DNA of 64,000 nt from Gammaproteobacteria bacterium Ga0074134 (GCA_001464965.1 LNEJ01000065.1:4548-68547), one strand, 5' to 3'. Counted from the first letter of the stretch, positions 12,034-16,975 are shown. Made by a program: numbers and translations. Notes: generated by a model from the letters alone, not told the origin.

Positions 12034-12588
12034 TTAGAATGTTACGCCGACGCTGATAATGTTCATGTTAACGTTTTTGCTGCCCGTCGTATTTGAATAT
12101 TTTATGATGACAGCCGAGGTTTTTGTGGTTTTGATGGTTGCGCCCAAGCCGTAGGTGGTGCCCGTCGAGTTGAACCGGCTCGATCCGCAGGTGTTCCCGT
12201 CACCAGAAACGGCGTTATCGCCCGCGGCTTGTTCCGCGGGGCATGTTTGACGATTCAGTATCGCGCCCGTCACGCCCGCCAGGATAAACGGATTTACCTG
12301 CGACTCGGGCAACACGTTATATTTGACGAAAACGTCGGATTTCAAGCTGACTCTTTCGCTGCCGCTTTGATCGCCTAACGTAACATTCATGCCGCCCCCA
12401 ACGAGACTGGCCGGATTGTAGTCAATTCCCAGATTGAGGAATGCAGCTCGATTATCACGTGTGGCGCCGACGGTTGAGGTGATAAATTCAGTCCCGACAA
12501 ATGGCTTAACGTCGCTTCCATAAACATCCAGTGAAAAGATGATTAAACCGTTTATTAAAAATAATTTTTTAATTTTATCGTTTATCAT
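12034..12588 (-). CDS. Small outer-membrane beta-barrel protein (OmpW/OmpA-like), AT-rich.
   Basis: 184 aa with signal peptide and C-terminal aromatic ...ISVGVTF. Alternating amphipathic strands. Markedly lower GC than its surroundings. Confidence 0.6.
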   Translation of the reverse strand: MINDKIKKLFLINGLIIFSLDVYGSDVKPFVGTEFITSTVGATRDNRAAFLNLGIDYNPASLVGGGMNVTLGDQSGSERVSLKSDVFVKYNVLPESQVNPFILAGVTGAILNRQTCPAEQAAGDNAVSGDGNTCGSSRFNSTGTTYGLGATIKTTKTSAVIIKYSNTTGSKNVNMNIISVGVTF

Positions 12589-13703
12589 AATTTCGCCTTC
12601 TCCTGCAGGCCCTTCCCCGCAAAACCCTCATCGGCTCGCAGCCCCACCGGCCTGAACACATCCACCTTGCGGAAGAACTGATCGACGACGTAGATGCGGC
12701 CGTCTTCGTCGACATCGATCCCGGCGGGGAGCATGTATTTAGCGGGGGCGCCGGAGGATCCGCGCTCGCCGATGAACATCAGCAGTTGCCCGTCCTTATT
12801 GAAGATCTGGAAATTGCCAAAGGCGGTGTCCACCACATAGATGTTGCCCTGGGGGTCGGTGGCAATGCCCTTGGGGCTGGCGAACTGGCCAGGGAAACGT
12901 CCGGGAGTGCCAAAAGCCAGCGCGAAGCTGCCGTCGGGGCGGAAGGCCTGGACACGGAAATTACCCTTGTCCACCACGTACAACGTGCCGTCGGGGCTGA
13001 CGGCGGCCTGCAAGGGCAGGTTGAACTCGCCGTCCTTGATGCCGCGTTTTCCGATGGTCTGCAGCAGCGCGCCCGTCCTGGCGTCAAACACATACACATG
13101 ATGCGCTTCCGTATCCACGCCACCGGTATCAGTCACATACAGGCGGGTGCCATCGGGATTGACGGCCACGCTCGAGGGACGCTGCAAGGTGTCCTTGTCA
13201 CCGATGGAGCGCAGGAATTTTCCTTCGCCGTCGTAGACCAGGACGCGCCTGAGCGTCATGTCAGAGACGAAGACCTCCCCTAGGCTGGAGACATCGATGC
13301 CCATCGGTTTGGTGAGCTGGCCCGGCTTGTCTGTGCCGATTTCGACGTAGCGCCTGCCAGGAATGTCGAACATGACAACCAGGCGCTGCGCGGTATCGGT
13401 CACATAGACACGGCCGCGATGGACGGCGACACCGAACGGTTTGATCAGGGCCTTGGCCCCCTTTTTCTCGCCCAGGGCGAAGAGTTTGAGGCGCTCGGTG
13501 ACGCTGCTGGCCTGCTCGACGTTGTCGCTGAAACTGAGGGTGCGCTCATAAATGAAGCGCGGGGCATCAGGGGCGGCGGGGAAGACCGGTGGAATGAGCT
13601 CGGCTTCCTTGGGCGCGGTGGCGCAGCCCGCAAGGGTAAGGATGAAAAGCGCATAAAACACGCCACGCCACAGGCGAGTTATTTGATGTGGCATGTCTCG
13701 CAC
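12585..13703 (-). CDS. NHL-repeat beta-propeller lipoprotein.
   Basis: 372 aa. Lipobox LTLAGCA. Repeated YVTD/YVVD NHL-type blades. Overlaps its neighbours, consistent with an operon. Confidence 0.75.
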   Translation of the reverse strand: MRDMPHQITRLWRGVFYALFILTLAGCATAPKEAELIPPVFPAAPDAPRFIYERTLSFSDNVEQASSVTERLKLFALGEKKGAKALIKPFGVAVHRGRVYVTDTAQRLVVMFDIPGRRYVEIGTDKPGQLTKPMGIDVSSLGEVFVSDMTLRRVLVYDGEGKFLRSIGDKDTLQRPSSVAVNPDGTRLYVTDTGGVDTEAHHVYVFDARTGALLQTIGKRGIKDGEFNLPLQAAVSPDGTLYVVDKGNFRVQAFRPDGSFALAFGTPGRFPGQFASPKGIATDPQGNIYVVDTAFGNFQIFNKDGQLLMFIGERGSSGAPAKYMLPAGIDVDEDGRIYVVDQFFRKVDVFRPVGLRADEGFAGKGLQEKAKL

Positions 13704-14425
13704 AACCTGTCGGACGTGGCGCGCAGCAGCAGGTTGATATCCGGGTTGTGAACATTATGGCACGTGGCGCACTCCACCTTGCCGTCGTACAGCTTCACGC
13801 CATTGTCGAAGCCATACGGTCCGTCGGGCTTCCAGAAATCCACGTCTTTCTGGTTCAGCCCGGCGTATTGCATGGAAATGGGGTGATCATTGCGCAGATC
13901 CGTGCCCAGGTGCTTGATTTCGATACTGTGCGCCACGCTGCCGTTGTGGCATTTGCCGCAGCTCATCAGATCATTGCCGCCATTGAGCCGAACATGCAGG
14001 GCGGCGTCCTGAGTGCTGTTCCAGCCGTTGGGTTTGAATACCGTCATGTCCAGGGCCATGGTGCCATCGTGGCAGGACAGACACAGCAGGCTGATCGGGC
14101 TGGGCGTACGCACCTTGTTTTCAATGCTGCGGCTGTCATACAAGGCGTAGCTGTCGGGATTCGGAAGAAACCGGTTCCAGCCCGGATTGCCGCCCGTTTC
14201 GGCTGAGTCGGCACCCTTTTTGTCCGGCGGGATATGGCAATACACGCAGGGCGAACCGTAATCCGAAAACGCAACGCCGGACATCGCGGTAACGCCAACG
14301 CGGGCATTCAGCCCGGTAAAGTCATGCTTGGTGCCGAGGATAGTGCCGCTCAGTGTAGGGCCGATCCAGGCGCTATTCAGCGCCAGCGCCACACCGCCTG
14401 CGACAAACCATCTGCGCTTGTTCAC
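13679..14425 (-). CDS. Pentaheme c-type cytochrome.
   Basis: 248 aa. Signal peptide. Five CxxCH motifs: CVYCH, CLSCH, CGKCH, CATCH, CETCH. Confidence 0.8.
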   Translation of the reverse strand: MNKRRWFVAGGVALALNSAWIGPTLSGTILGTKHDFTGLNARVGVTAMSGVAFSDYGSPCVYCHIPPDKKGADSAETGGNPGWNRFLPNPDSYALYDSRSIENKVRTPSPISLLCLSCHDGTMALDMTVFKPNGWNSTQDAALHVRLNGGNDLMSCGKCHNGSVAHSIEIKHLGTDLRNDHPISMQYAGLNQKDVDFWKPDGPYGFDNGVKLYDGKVECATCHNVHNPDINLLLRATSDRLCETCHIK

Positions 14426-16031: not shown

Positions 16032-16051
16032 GTGACGCCACCCCCGCCCCA

Positions 16052-16975
16052 GGTTATGGCGCCGCCCGCACAAAACCGCGCAGCGCCCATGAGCTGGGGC
16101 GCGACATCTACAACTACCGCTGCTATTTCTGCCACGGCTATTCCGGCGACGCCAAGACTGTCGCCGCCACCTACCTCTCCCCTCCGCCGCGCGACTTCAC
16201 CGCCCATCCCATCGACCGCCAGAAAATGATCAAAGCGGTGACGGAAGGGCGCTCCGGCACCGCCATGATGCCCTTCAAGGGGATGTTGAAACCGCGTGAG
16301 ATAGAAGCGGTTGTGGACTTTGTGCGCCAGGAATTCATGGCCCGCAAGGCCGAGAATACCCGCTACCATACGCCGGAAAACGGCTGGCCCAACCACGAAC
16401 GCTACAAGGCCGCCTATCCCTTCGCCAGGGGTAAAATCCCACTCGATACGCCATGGGAGGCGCTGACGCCCGAACAACGCACCGGCAAGCAGTTATTCAT
16501 GTCTTCGTGTGTCACCTGTCATGAGGGCTCGCGCACCCAGGGCGGCAAGGACCCCGCCGTGTGGGATCCGCGCGCGCTATCCTATCCGCGCAACGGCTAT
16601 TCGCACCGGCAGCCGCCCGCCAAACCGGTTGACAGCGTGTCCGGCGCCAGCGTGTACGCCAAACACGATGTCGCCCCCAAGCTGGCCGGACTTTCTCCCC
16701 AGGAGCGGCAGGGCGAAGCGCTGTTCCAGCAGAATTGTGCCTTTTGCCACGCCGCGGATGGCACTGGCCGCAACTGGATAGGCAGCTTTCTGCAACCGCA
16801 TCCCCGCGACCTCACCAGCCGCGCCGCCATGGCGGGCATGACCCGCGCCCGTCTGAAACAGGTCATCCGCGACGGCCTGCCCGGCGCCACCATGCCAGCA
16901 TGGAAATCGGTACTGACCGGTGAGCAGATTGATGCGGTAACTGCTTATGTGGCACGCGCCTTTTCACTTGAATAG
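16052..16975 (+). pseudogene. Continuation of the same multiheme cytochrome c in the +1 frame: a 4th repeated domain plus two further heme sites. Either a frameshifted gene or a homopolymer miscall.
   Basis: The frame-2 translation upstream of the annotated 16226 start reads ELGRDIYNYRCYFCHGYSGDAKTVAATYLSPPPRDFTAHPIDRQKMIKAV. This matches the repeat unit of the upstream ORF. CVTCH and CAFCH follow. Confidence 0.65.

What the first reader, a model, noticed from the sequence alone, without database searches (positions are those of the whole stretch)
12034..16975. Divergent multiheme-cytochrome cluster: pentaheme cytochrome c, NHL beta-propeller lipoprotein and a small AT-rich OM barrel, opposite a repeat-domain multiheme cytochrome c
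Three overlapping minus-strand genes look like an envelope-spanning redox module: pentaheme cytochrome c (5 CxxCH), NHL-repeat lipoprotein and a 184-aa beta-barrel with a C-terminal aromatic residue. They are divergently arranged from a secreted cytochrome built of four near-identical class I cytochrome c domains plus two further heme sites. The barrel gene is much more AT-rich than its neighbours, and a foldback element sits in the shared promoter region. The architecture resembles small porin-cytochrome or extracellular electron-transfer modules, but the NHL-propeller component is not part of the well-described MtrAB/Cyc2 types.
Basis: partly seen in the sequence, partly recalled or inferred. 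Interest (0 to 1): 0.65.

Follow-up and report, generated by a model that had tools for sequence, protein, structure and literature searches.

The report
Cytochrome gene cluster with slippery frameshift
This is a conserved set of heme-protein genes for moving electrons through the bacterial cell envelope, related to "nanowire" cytochromes, and a run of nine A's has to be misread to join two three-heme genes into one six-heme protein.

Summary
The genes exist as described, but the interpretation needs correcting.

**Conserved unit (four genes, not the trio).** An OmcE-family pentaheme cytochrome is translationally coupled to an NHL beta-propeller lipoprotein. This pair lies divergent from two class I triheme cytochrome ORFs. 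The layout matches the uncharacterised "secondary c-type cytochrome cluster" of Tenderiales (Eddie et al. 2022). The pentaheme fits the "5-heme OmcE-like" proteins proposed in 2025 as a possible nanowire family.

**Barrel.** It is a real gene, but only an 8-stranded OmpX/Ail-like protein. It is AT-rich, found only in near-identical relatives, and cannot act as a cytochrome porin.

**Foldback.** It is a REP/MITE-like insertion that is missing in close relatives.

**Plus-strand "hexaheme".**
- It is not one ORF. The second triheme ORF has no start codon or signal peptide and lies in the -1 frame.
- The two frames overlap only around an A9 run (16008-16016).
- The A-run with a shifted frame recurs in all 17 distinct related loci examined. 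60 of 103 cytA-only protein clusters end KKK plus 1-4 residues.
- The downstream ORF is under purifying selection, and natural in-frame fusions exist.
- This indicates programmed slippage, probably transcriptional. I found no report of it.

**Function.** An envelope electron relay is inferred, not shown.

The parts
13679..14425 (-). OmcE-family pentaheme c-type cytochrome (248 aa). It has a Sec signal peptide, five CxxCH sites and ten invariant His, which implies five bis-His hemes.
   Evidence: The ORF and heme motifs are. The family has 867 members, and 10 His are invariant across 16 sequences. It is a full-length homolog of the OmcE filament subunits 7TFS (E 3e-21) and 9YUQ (E 6e-14). The third heme (CGKCH) lies in an insertion relative to OmcE.
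12585..13703 (-). NHL-repeat beta-propeller lipoprotein (372 aa from GTG 13703, or 369 aa from ATG 13694). Lipobox LAGC with Ala at +2. Its start overlaps the end of the pentaheme gene.
   Evidence: Pfam NHL E 2.6e-27. PDB NHL domains of TRIM71 E 4e-48. It lies next to the pentaheme gene in every close relative and in 79 of 92 cases across phyla. dN/dS is 0.10 against L085.
12034..12588 (-). Small 8-stranded outer-membrane beta-barrel (184 aa). It has a signal peptide, two conserved loop Cys and a C-terminal F. It is AT-rich and a lineage-specific addition. Its start overlaps the NHL stop codon (ATGA).
   Evidence: AF2 pLDDT 82.8 with 8 strands. Foldseek matches Ail, OmpA-TM, OprF-N, NspA, OmpX and OmpW. 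Pfam OMP_b-brl scores 23.9 bits, below the cutoff. GC 0.48. dN/dS 0.15. It is found only in L085 and L091/L092. Only 14 remote relatives exist among 1.84 billion representatives, and the two whose contigs were examined are not next to cytochromes.
14496..14561 (.). A 66-nt intergenic block identical to that of relative L085. It holds a sigma-70-like TTGCGA-18-TATATT on the minus strand (14549-14520), pointing at the pentaheme operon. It is the probable shared control region.
   Evidence: Alignment, promoter scan. The flanking genes have dS 0.3-0.5.
14603..14820 (.). A 218-bp foldback (REP/MITE-like) with 31-nt terminal inverted arms, inserted just upstream of the cytA start.
   Evidence: -108.7 kcal/mol, z -8.9. 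It is absent from L085 and L091, where the intergenic region is 195-196 bp against 400 bp here. A short copy of the same arms lies at 58496-58548.
14841..16031 (+). cytA, a secreted class I triheme cytochrome c (CSACH, CAVCH, CFTCH with His/Met-type motifs). It is 396 aa from ATG 14841, or 401 aa from TTG 14826. It ends KKKVPGS*.
   Evidence: Cytochrome_CBB3 E 1.9e-42, three stretches. Database protein P0123 is an identical 396-aa sequence.
16008..16016 (+). An A9 slippery run (cag AAA AAA AAA gtc). It is the proposed site of +1A transcriptional slippage or -1 ribosomal frameshift that joins cytA to cytB.
   Evidence: All 17 distinct related loci examined (plus L085 and L091) have an A9-A11 run with a shifted downstream frame. 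In 5 of them the -1 frame only opens inside the run. 60 of 103 cytA-only protein clusters end KKK plus 1-4 aa.
16016..16975 (+). cytB, the second triheme ORF (CYFCH, CVTCH, CAFCH) in the -1 frame. It has no ATG/GTG/TTG before 16226 and no signal peptide. It is expressed only as a 711/716-aa CytA-CytB hexaheme fusion.
   Evidence: dN/dS is 0.15 against L005. Natural in-frame fusions of 622-785 aa exist. Distant homologs without the A-run have their own ATG and signal peptide.

Best explanation
The locus is a self-contained electron-transfer module of the periplasm and outer membrane, in an uncultured Tenderiales-like gammaproteobacterium.

**Shown**
1. A minus-strand operon encodes a secreted bis-His pentaheme cytochrome of the OmcE family. 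It is translationally coupled to an NHL six-bladed-propeller lipoprotein. This pair is conserved across many phyla.
2. A divergent plus-strand unit encodes a secreted class I triheme cytochrome (CytA). Its gene ends a few codons after an A9 run. A second triheme ORF (CytB) follows in the -1 frame. CytB has no start codon or signal peptide, is under purifying selection, and is linked to the first frame only through that run.
3. The small barrel and the foldback are recent, lineage-specific additions.

**Inferred**
- RNA polymerase adds one A on the A9 run (less likely, the ribosome slips by -1). The cell therefore makes both CytA (3 hemes) and a CytA-CytB fusion (6 hemes). The fusion carries CytB across the inner membrane on CytA's signal peptide, so its hemes can be attached in the periplasm.
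- The outer-membrane-anchored NHL propeller holds or organises the OmcE-like pentaheme at the outer membrane.
- Electrons pass between the pentaheme (bis-His, typically lower potential) and the His/Met class I hemes (typically higher potential). The class I domains resemble the cytochrome subunit of cbb3 oxidase (CcoP), so they could plausibly link to the aerobic respiratory chain.
- The direction of electron flow, uptake or export, cannot be read from sequence.
For: **Homology and pairing**
- The pentaheme is homologous to OmcE and has ten invariant His for five hemes.
- The NHL partner has a lipobox and NHL repeats. The OmcE-like/NHL pairing holds in 79 of 92 cases.
- The four-gene divergent arrangement is present in all close relatives.

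**Literature**
- The same gene set is described as the Tenderiales "secondary c-type cytochrome cluster".
- Five-heme OmcE-like proteins and beta-propeller lipoproteins are described for omcE clusters.

**Recoding**
- An A9-A11 run with a shifted frame occurs in all 17 distinct related loci examined. These come from different studies and assemblers.
- The flanking sequence is not conserved, but the run is.
- A KKK tail occurs in 60 of 103 clusters, against 17 KKK in 42,900 other positions.
- cytB has dN/dS 0.15.
- In-frame fusions exist, including L088 with A10 at the same site.
- Homologs without the run have their own signal peptides.
- No stable downstream RNA structure was found.
Against: - No expression, localisation or redox data exist for this cluster. 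The Tenderia transcriptome paper does not discuss it.
- No large outer-membrane barrel or other secretion route lies nearby. How, or whether, the pentaheme reaches the cell surface is therefore open.
- The structure prediction of the pentaheme failed (pLDDT 33).
- Some close lineages carry in-frame run lengths: L086 has A9 while its sister L003 has A11, and L088 has A10. DNA-level length variation therefore also occurs.
- L014 needs a +1 shift or a one-base deletion rather than -1.
Confidence: 0.6

Rival explanations
1. The pentaheme is the subunit of an OmcE/OmcZ-like cytochrome filament ("nanowire"). Subunits would polymerise by donating a His to a heme of the next subunit, with the fifth heme exposed to solvent. 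The NHL lipoprotein would be its assembly or anchoring factor, and the class I cytochromes would charge the wire from the periplasm. This refines the best explanation rather than excluding it.
For: It is a full-length homolog of two solved OmcE filaments, and all alignable heme-ligand His residues are kept. The 2025 preprint proposes 5-heme OmcE-like proteins from uncultured bacteria as a new nanowire family. It also lists a beta-propeller lipoprotein as a hallmark of omcE clusters.
Against: That same paper requires a large outer-membrane barrel for nanowire candidates, and none is present here. The neighbours are waaA, plsY, lpdA and sucAB. The His count cannot tell a monomer from a polymer. 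OmcE-like domains also occur in non-filament contexts, such as 11-heme UetJ-like proteins. No model could be built.
Confidence: 0.2
2. Pentaheme, NHL lipoprotein and small barrel would form a miniature porin-cytochrome conduit spanning the outer membrane.
For: The three genes overlap and are probably co-transcribed. The barrel is a genuine outer-membrane protein under purifying selection. The trio recurs in L085 and L091/L092.
Against: The barrel is 8-stranded, of the OmpX/Ail/OmpA-TM type, and has no pore able to hold a heme protein. Known cytochrome porins are far larger: MtrB has 26 strands and UetC is predicted to have 28. The barrel is absent from all other relatives that keep the other four genes. 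The two remote family members whose contigs were examined lie next to housekeeping genes. Its AT-rich composition suggests recent acquisition.
Confidence: 0.03
3. The cytA/cytB frame break is not programmed. It would be a homopolymer sequencing error, a decaying pseudogene, or a DNA-level phase-variation switch that turns CytB on and off.
For: Homopolymers are error-prone and mutable. Close lineages differ in run length, and some are in frame (L086 A9, L088 A10). About 7 of the database fusions keep KKK at the junction.
Against: The out-of-frame state is seen in all 17 distinct related loci, from independent assemblies. One genome was recovered twice, as a 3-Mb contig and in a separate read-set assembly. 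Out-of-frame forms outnumber in-frame KKK forms roughly 10 to 1. Yet cytB stays open for about 300 codons with dN/dS 0.15. A simple on/off switch would give a third or more in-frame consensus sequences.
Confidence: 0.1
4. The NHL propeller is a catalytic periplasmic enzyme, for example an oxidoreductase or lyase acting on a soluble or mineral substrate. The cytochromes would be its dedicated electron-acceptor or donor chain.
For: Six-bladed NHL/SGL propellers include enzymes. There are weak hits to SMP-30/gluconolactonase, strictosidine synthase-like and peptidyl-alpha-hydroxyglycine lyase folds. Tight translational coupling to a cytochrome resembles enzyme-cytochrome pairs.
Against: No cofactor or active-site motif was identified. 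The strongest similarity is to protein-binding NHL domains of the TRIM71 and Brat type. The same propellers accompany 4-, 5- and 11-heme partners, which suggests a structural role. The literature also assigns a scaffolding role, although without experiments.
Confidence: 0.1

Closest known systems
[quoted passage not shown] 2022, bioRxiv 10.1101/2022.05.06.490989; proteins ALP54653-ALP54655)
   Same: It has the same gene set: a pentaheme, an NHL protein and two triheme cytochromes. A Candidatus Tenderia sp. MAG (L009) carries the same four genes. Its pentaheme is 69-74% identical and it has the same A9 junction.
   Different: In Tenderia and in L001/L003 the module sits next to sensor-propeller proteins, a c-di-GMP phosphodiesterase, a thioredoxin, a CcoP-like cytochrome and ccm genes. 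In the window it lies between waaA and lpdA-sucBA, and it has gained a small barrel and a foldback. The paper treats the two triheme genes as separate and does not mention a frameshift (0 occurrences).
OmcE cytochrome nanowire and its gene cluster (Geobacter sulfurreducens 7TFS; Desulfuromonas soudanensis 9YUQ), plus the "5-heme OmcE-like" proteins of bioRxiv 10.1101/2025.10.22.684050
   Same: There is full-length sequence homology, with conserved KHD, CxxCH-P, WNR, CxSCHDG, NDHP, CxxCHxVH and C-terminal CxxCHxK motifs. A beta-propeller lipoprotein lies adjacent, and further multiheme cytochromes are in the cluster.
   Different: This protein has five hemes, not four. No large outer-membrane barrel and no glycosylation genes are present. 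The partner cytochromes are class I His/Met domains. The host is a probably aerobic Tenderiales-like gammaproteobacterium rather than an anaerobic metal reducer. Polymerisation is untested.
Uet (undecaheme electron transfer) cluster of Tenderiales and some Gallionella
   Same: It uses the same building principle: OmcE-like multiheme cytochromes (tetraheme and undecaheme) paired with NHL propellers (UetH/UetI). Many of the loci retrieved here show NHL + 11-heme and 4-heme + NHL pairs.
   Different: The window has no undecaheme, no 28-strand UetC barrel, no c7-type trihemes, no cupredoxin and no peptidyl-prolyl isomerase. It is a paralogous, simpler module.
Programmed transcriptional slippage / -1 frameshift sites: Thermus thermophilus dnaX (A9), IS-element transposases, Shigella mxiE, Citrobacter tssM
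   Same: It has a homopolymer of 9 or more A, and the run is conserved while its flanks drift. There are two N-terminally coincident products, and the 0-frame stop lies just after the run.
   Different: The gene is a secreted respiratory c-type cytochrome. Here the apparent role of recoding is to lend a signal peptide to a second heme module and to set a 3-heme to 6-heme product ratio. I found no such case in the recoding literature I could search.
Porin-cytochrome conduits (MtrCAB, MtoAB/PioAB, PCC3) and Cyc2
   Same: They too are envelope-located multiheme electron-transfer gene clusters in lithotrophs.
   Different: The window has no 16-28-strand porin, no MtrA-type decaheme and no fused cytochrome-porin. 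Its only barrel has 8 strands.

Membership tests
OmcE family of multiheme cytochromes (PDB 7TFS, 9YUQ) | Full-length sequence homology to OmcE filament subunits | tested here: met
   Profile A1 against the PDB: 7TFS E 3e-21 and 9YUQ E 6e-14, each matched in two stretches (an N-terminal and a C-terminal block) that cover most of both proteins. The single sequence gives E 7.9e-14.
OmcE family of multiheme cytochromes (PDB 7TFS, 9YUQ) | Four CxxCH hemes with four conserved distal His | tested here: not met
   There are five CxxCH sites and ten invariant His. The extra CGKCH, with two extra His, lies in an insertion relative to OmcE. This fits the "5-heme OmcE-like" subgroup rather than OmcE proper.
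OmcE family of multiheme cytochromes (PDB 7TFS, 9YUQ) | Polymerises into filaments, with one heme ligated by a His of the next subunit | not testable with these tools
   The AF2 model without hemes failed (pLDDT 33). No multimer or heme-aware prediction was available.
omcE-type nanowire gene cluster (criteria of bioRxiv 10.1101/2025.10.22.684050) | Adjacent beta-propeller lipoprotein | tested here: met
   An NHL propeller with an LAGC lipobox lies directly downstream and overlaps the pentaheme gene. Homology to the Geobacter propellers themselves was not tested.
omcE-type nanowire gene cluster (criteria of bioRxiv 10.1101/2025.10.22.684050) | Large outer-membrane beta-barrel nearby | tested here: not met
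   The only barrel is 184 aa with 8 strands. The flanking genes are folK, folB, plsY and waaA on one side and lpdA, sucB and sucA on the other. The ten largest ORFs elsewhere in the window are housekeeping or pilus genes.
Tenderiales secondary c-type cytochrome cluster (Eddie et al. 2022) | Pentaheme + NHL protein + two triheme cytochromes encoded together | tested here: met
   The same four genes occur in a Candidatus Tenderia sp. MAG, L009.
Tenderiales secondary c-type cytochrome cluster (Eddie et al. 2022) | Neighbouring sensor-domain proteins, c-di-GMP phosphodiesterase, thioredoxin, CcoP-like cytochrome and ccm genes | tested here: not met
   These are present in L001 and L003 but absent from the window, where the flanks are housekeeping genes.
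Porin-cytochrome conduits (MtrAB/MtoAB/PioAB, PCC3, Uet) | Large (about 20-28-strand) porin plus a deca- or undecaheme that threads it | tested here: not met
   The barrel has 8 strands. The DmsE/MtrA and OmcA/MtrC NCBIfam models score far below their cutoffs: 22 against 192 bits and 24 against 209 bits.
Small 8-stranded outer-membrane proteins (OmpX/Ail/OmpA-TM/OmpW fold) | Signal peptide, eight antiparallel strands and a C-terminal aromatic residue | tested here: met
   AF2 gives 8 strands at pLDDT 82.8. Foldseek probability is 1.0 with target-normalised TM-scores of 0.5-0.67. The protein ends GVTF.
Small 8-stranded outer-membrane proteins (OmpX/Ail/OmpA-TM/OmpW fold) | Passes a curated sequence-family threshold | tested here: inconclusive
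   Pfam OMP_b-brl scores 23.9 bits against a cutoff of 28.7. NCBIfam autotransporter-barrel domain scores 18.1 bits against a cutoff of 16, but only over the C-terminal strands.
Programmed transcriptional realignment (slippage) site | Homopolymer of at least 8-9 nt at the frame junction, conserved among diverged orthologs while the flanks vary | tested here: met
   An A9-A11 run occurs in all 17 distinct related loci, at 39-89% CytA identity, and the flanks are unrelated. The KKK tail occurs in 60 of 103 clusters.
Programmed transcriptional realignment (slippage) site | Downstream ORF cannot be expressed alone yet is under purifying selection | tested here: met
   There is no start codon from 15941 to 16226 and no signal peptide. 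dN/dS is 0.15. Run-less homologs have their own signal peptides.
Programmed transcriptional realignment (slippage) site | mRNA population with added or deleted A relative to DNA | not testable with these tools
   This needs cDNA against gDNA amplicon sequencing.
dnaX-type -1 programmed ribosomal frameshift | In-phase slippery heptamer X_XXY_YYZ | tested here: met
   A_AAA_AAA lies in the 0 frame (cag aaa aaa aaa gtc).
dnaX-type -1 programmed ribosomal frameshift | Stimulatory downstream stem-loop or pseudoknot (and an upstream SD-like element) | tested here: not met
   The 60 nt downstream fold no better than shuffled sequence in 17 loci (z from -1.8 to +0.9). By inspection, upstream GGAG-like motifs occur in only a few loci. 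L014 would need +1, not -1.

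The most novel reading that the evidence does not exclude
Two linked claims make up the most novel reading.
1. The A9 run is a true programmed transcriptional-slippage site, the first in a respiratory c-type cytochrome. It would set a fixed ratio of a 3-heme to a 6-heme periplasmic carrier and smuggle a signal-less heme module across the membrane.
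2. The adjacent pentaheme polymerises on its NHL lipoprotein into a new 5-heme "leaky" OmcE-type wire. This wire would be used by aerobic, electron-uptake (electroautotroph-like) Gammaproteobacteria and would need no large secretion barrel.
Probability: 0.15. Interest if true: 0.85.

Novelty: new variant of a known kind. Interest (0 to 1): 0.6.

Why it matters
**The pairing.** The OmcE-like cytochrome plus NHL propeller is one of the most widespread unexplained two-gene units in extracellular electron-transfer loci. It occurs in Uet, omcE and D. ferrophilus clusters, and here. This locus is a minimal version with few other parts, which makes it a good system for finding out what the propeller does.

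**The wider distribution.** It connects the Tenderiales "secondary" cytochrome cluster to the nanowire family. That extends the possible range of OmcE-type proteins to aerobic electron-uptake bacteria.

**The frameshift.**
- Gene callers and published annotations split or truncate the second cytochrome.
- Heme counts and pathway models for these organisms are therefore wrong by three hemes.
- It also gives a rare, easily testable case of recoding used to build a modular redox protein.

Tried and rejected
**Attempts that gave nothing**
- The AlphaFold2 model of the pentaheme, built from a 16-sequence alignment, was unusable (pLDDT 33). No fold search was run on it.
- An Rfam scan of 11900-17400 at E <= 0.1 found nothing.
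- A search for a frameshift-stimulating RNA structure downstream or upstream of the A-run in 17 loci found nothing above shuffled controls.
- The literature I could search gave no report of recoding in cytochrome c genes. One look-up failed on a term that was too short. The OmcE structure paper is not held.
- The Tenderia metatranscriptome paper does not mention this cluster.

**Barrel as a conserved partner: rejected**
- The word-index search found only itself and one 85% relative.
- The full HMMER search found 14 remote relatives.
- The two remote relatives whose contigs were examined lie beside housekeeping genes.
- A family profile found no member in any other cytochrome locus.

**Ideas considered and rejected**
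- MtrAB, Cyc2 and Uet membership: the defining parts are absent.
- A Gallionellaceae or Thiobacillus origin: the nearest loci are Tenderia-like Gammaproteobacteria, and the Gallionella loci hold only paralogs about 32% identical.
- The foldback as a conserved regulator: it is absent in L085 and L091.
- cytB as a pseudogene: dN/dS is 0.15.

Full report
**What is in the sequence.**
- Three overlapping minus-strand ORFs lie between waaA (10708-12018) and lpdA-sucB-sucA (17386-22897). They are 12034-12588 (184 aa), 12585-13703 (372 aa) and 13679-14425 (248 aa).
- Two plus-strand ORFs lie opposite them: 14826-16031, and one the ORF tool lists as 16226-16975.
- The 248-aa protein has five CxxCH sites. 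It hits only generic multiheme Pfam and NCBIfam models.
- The 372-aa protein has NHL repeats (E 2.6e-27) and the lipobox LAGC. It matches the six-bladed NHL domains of TRIM71 at E 4e-48.
- The 184-aa protein gives a weak OMP_b-brl hit that falls below the Pfam cutoff.

**The barrel.**
- It is a real gene: dN/dS is 0.15 against its 86%-identical ortholog.
- AlphaFold2 gives pLDDT 82.8, a signal helix and eight strands.
- Foldseek finds Ail, OmpA-TM, OprF-N, NspA, OmpX and OmpW at probability 1.0.
- It is AT-rich: GC 0.48 and GC3 0.57, against 0.59-0.65 and 0.72-0.78 for its neighbours.
- It is nearly an orphan. The indexed search of 5.8 billion proteins found one other cluster. A full HMMER pass over 1.84 billion representatives found 14 hits.
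- It follows the NHL gene only in L085 and L091/L092, which are very close relatives with a 98%-identical pentaheme.
- The two remote family members whose contigs were examined sit beside housekeeping genes. A family profile finds no member in any other cytochrome locus. L005, whose pentaheme is about 90% identical, has no barrel.
- An eight-stranded barrel cannot house a cytochrome. The porin-cytochrome reading therefore fails.

**The conserved unit.**
- The pentaheme family is large and strongly conserved, with 867 hits and ten invariant His.
- A scan of 185,579 species genomes returned 578 relatives. The close ones (58-91% identity) are uncultured Gammaproteobacteria, a Candidatus Tenderia sp. 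and Ectothiorhodospiraceae MAGs.
- Every close locus has cytB-cytA divergent from pentaheme-NHL.
- More distant loci keep the same four gene types in a different order. These include Rubrivivax, the cultured Noviherbaspirillum sp. ST 5-3, an Oxalobacteraceae MAG and a Nitrospirae MAG.
- Across all phyla sampled, 79 of 92 OmcE-like genes with enough flank have an NHL gene within 1.5 kb, and 76 of those are on the same strand. The partners carry 4, 5 or 11 hemes.

**What is known about it.**
- Eddie et al. (2022) list exactly this gene set in Ca. [quoted passage not shown] It comprises a pentaheme, an NHL protein and two triheme cytochromes. No function is assigned, and the paper does not mention a frameshift.
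- Against the PDB, the pentaheme is a full-length homolog of the OmcE nanowire subunits 7TFS (E 3e-21) and 9YUQ (E 6e-14). The third heme lies in an insertion relative to OmcE.
- The 9YUQ preprint gives the minimal omcE cluster as two multiheme cytochromes, two beta-propeller lipoproteins, OmcE and a large barrel. It also reports 5-heme OmcE-like proteins in uncultured bacteria as a possible new nanowire family.
- NHL propellers beside multiheme cytochromes are also known from Uet and from D. ferrophilus.
- The window lacks the large barrel.

**The frameshift.**
- The homologous cytB reading frame is open from 15941 and includes CYFCH. It has no ATG, GTG or TTG before 16226 and no signal peptide. 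It lies in the -1 frame relative to cytA.
- The overlap of the two frames contains an A9 run at 16008-16016.
- The same arrangement occurs in all 17 distinct related loci examined: an A9-A11 run just before the cytA stop, with cytB in a shifted frame. The shift is -1 in 16 loci and +1 in L014. In five loci the shifted frame opens only inside the run.
- The flanks are unrelated in sequence.
- Among database CytA homologs, 60 of 103 clusters end KKK plus 1-4 residues. KKK occurs only 17 times in 42,900 other positions.
- cytB is under purifying selection, with dN/dS 0.15.
- Thirteen natural in-frame fusions of 622-785 aa exist. L088 has A10 at the same site.
- Homologs without the run have their own ATG and signal peptide.
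- No stable RNA structure follows the run, and Rfam finds nothing. Transcriptional slippage is therefore the more likely mechanism. A -1 ribosomal shift on A_AAA_AAA is the alternative, and both give the same protein.
- Some sister lineages differ in run length (L086 A9 in frame, L003 A11 out of frame). DNA-level variation therefore also occurs.
- I found no report of such recoding in a cytochrome c gene.

**Other details.**
- The six heme sites are five class I domains, 29-55% identical to one another, plus one atypical site. They are not four near-identical repeats.
- The foldback at 14603-14820 is real.
  - It is missing from L085 and L091, whose intergenic regions are 195-196 bp against 400 bp here.
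  - Its arms recur as a short hairpin at 58496-58548.
  - It is therefore a REP/MITE-like insertion.
- Upstream of the foldback, a 66-nt block (14496-14561) is identical in L085. It carries a promoter-like site aimed at the pentaheme operon.

**Interpretation.**
- Shown: the gene content, the homologies, the conserved pairing and the comparative signature of recoding.
- Inferred: the NHL lipoprotein organises the OmcE-like pentaheme at the outer membrane. The tri- and hexaheme class I cytochromes relay electrons in the periplasm. Slippage produces both isoforms.
- Still open: the direction of electron flow, the cellular location of the pentaheme, and whether it polymerises.

Noticed in passing
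window 32892-32900: This is the only other A9 run in the 64-kb window. It lies in frame (RKKKITAKD) inside a T2SSF/PilC-like gene (32701-33933), next to pilB-, pilS- and pilR-like genes. It is not at a frame junction.
   Followed up: partly
window 58496-58548: A short hairpin made of the same arms as the 218-bp foldback at 14603-14820. It lies just upstream of speA (56469-58436, minus strand). In relative L091 speA abuts waaA beside the cytochrome operon, so the window is rearranged, possibly at these repeats.
   Followed up: partly
window 14496-14561: A 66-nt intergenic block is identical between the window and L085, although the flanking genes have dS 0.3-0.5. It contains TTGCGA-18-TATATT on the minus strand and is a likely operator/promoter of the divergent unit.
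   Followed up: partly
L011 12118-13074, L013 12086-12841, L014 12422-13285, L015 12053-12868, L016 10574-11437: A second, longer (331-339 aa) five-heme OmcE-like paralog lies directly downstream of the NHL gene in one sub-lineage of the close relatives.
   Followed up: no
L032, L037, L040, L046, L048, L050, L052, L053, L058, L060-L063, L066, L069, L070, L075, L079, L080, L082, L084: Loci from Planctomycetota, Bacteroidota, Calditrichota, Verrucomicrobiota and other phyla carry NHL + 11-heme pairs, and many also 4-heme + NHL pairs. This is the Uet-like layout, far outside Tenderiales and Gallionella.
   Followed up: no
L003 3277-4554; L086 6139-7434: In one sub-lineage a 425-431-aa Porin_O_P-like barrel lies two genes after cytB. 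It is the only larger barrel seen near any version of the module.
   Followed up: no
L014 (junction near oriented position 7945): This is the only locus where cytB is in the +1 frame, with an A10 run. One fewer A would make cytA-cytB a direct in-frame fusion.
   Followed up: partly
L064 (Noviherbaspirillum sp. ST 5-3, NZ_CP176528.1, 2433198-2454058): A cultured strain with a complete genome carries the variant of the module without the A-run. Its cytA and cytB are separate, and its NHL protein is 54% identical. It offers an experimental handle.
   Followed up: no
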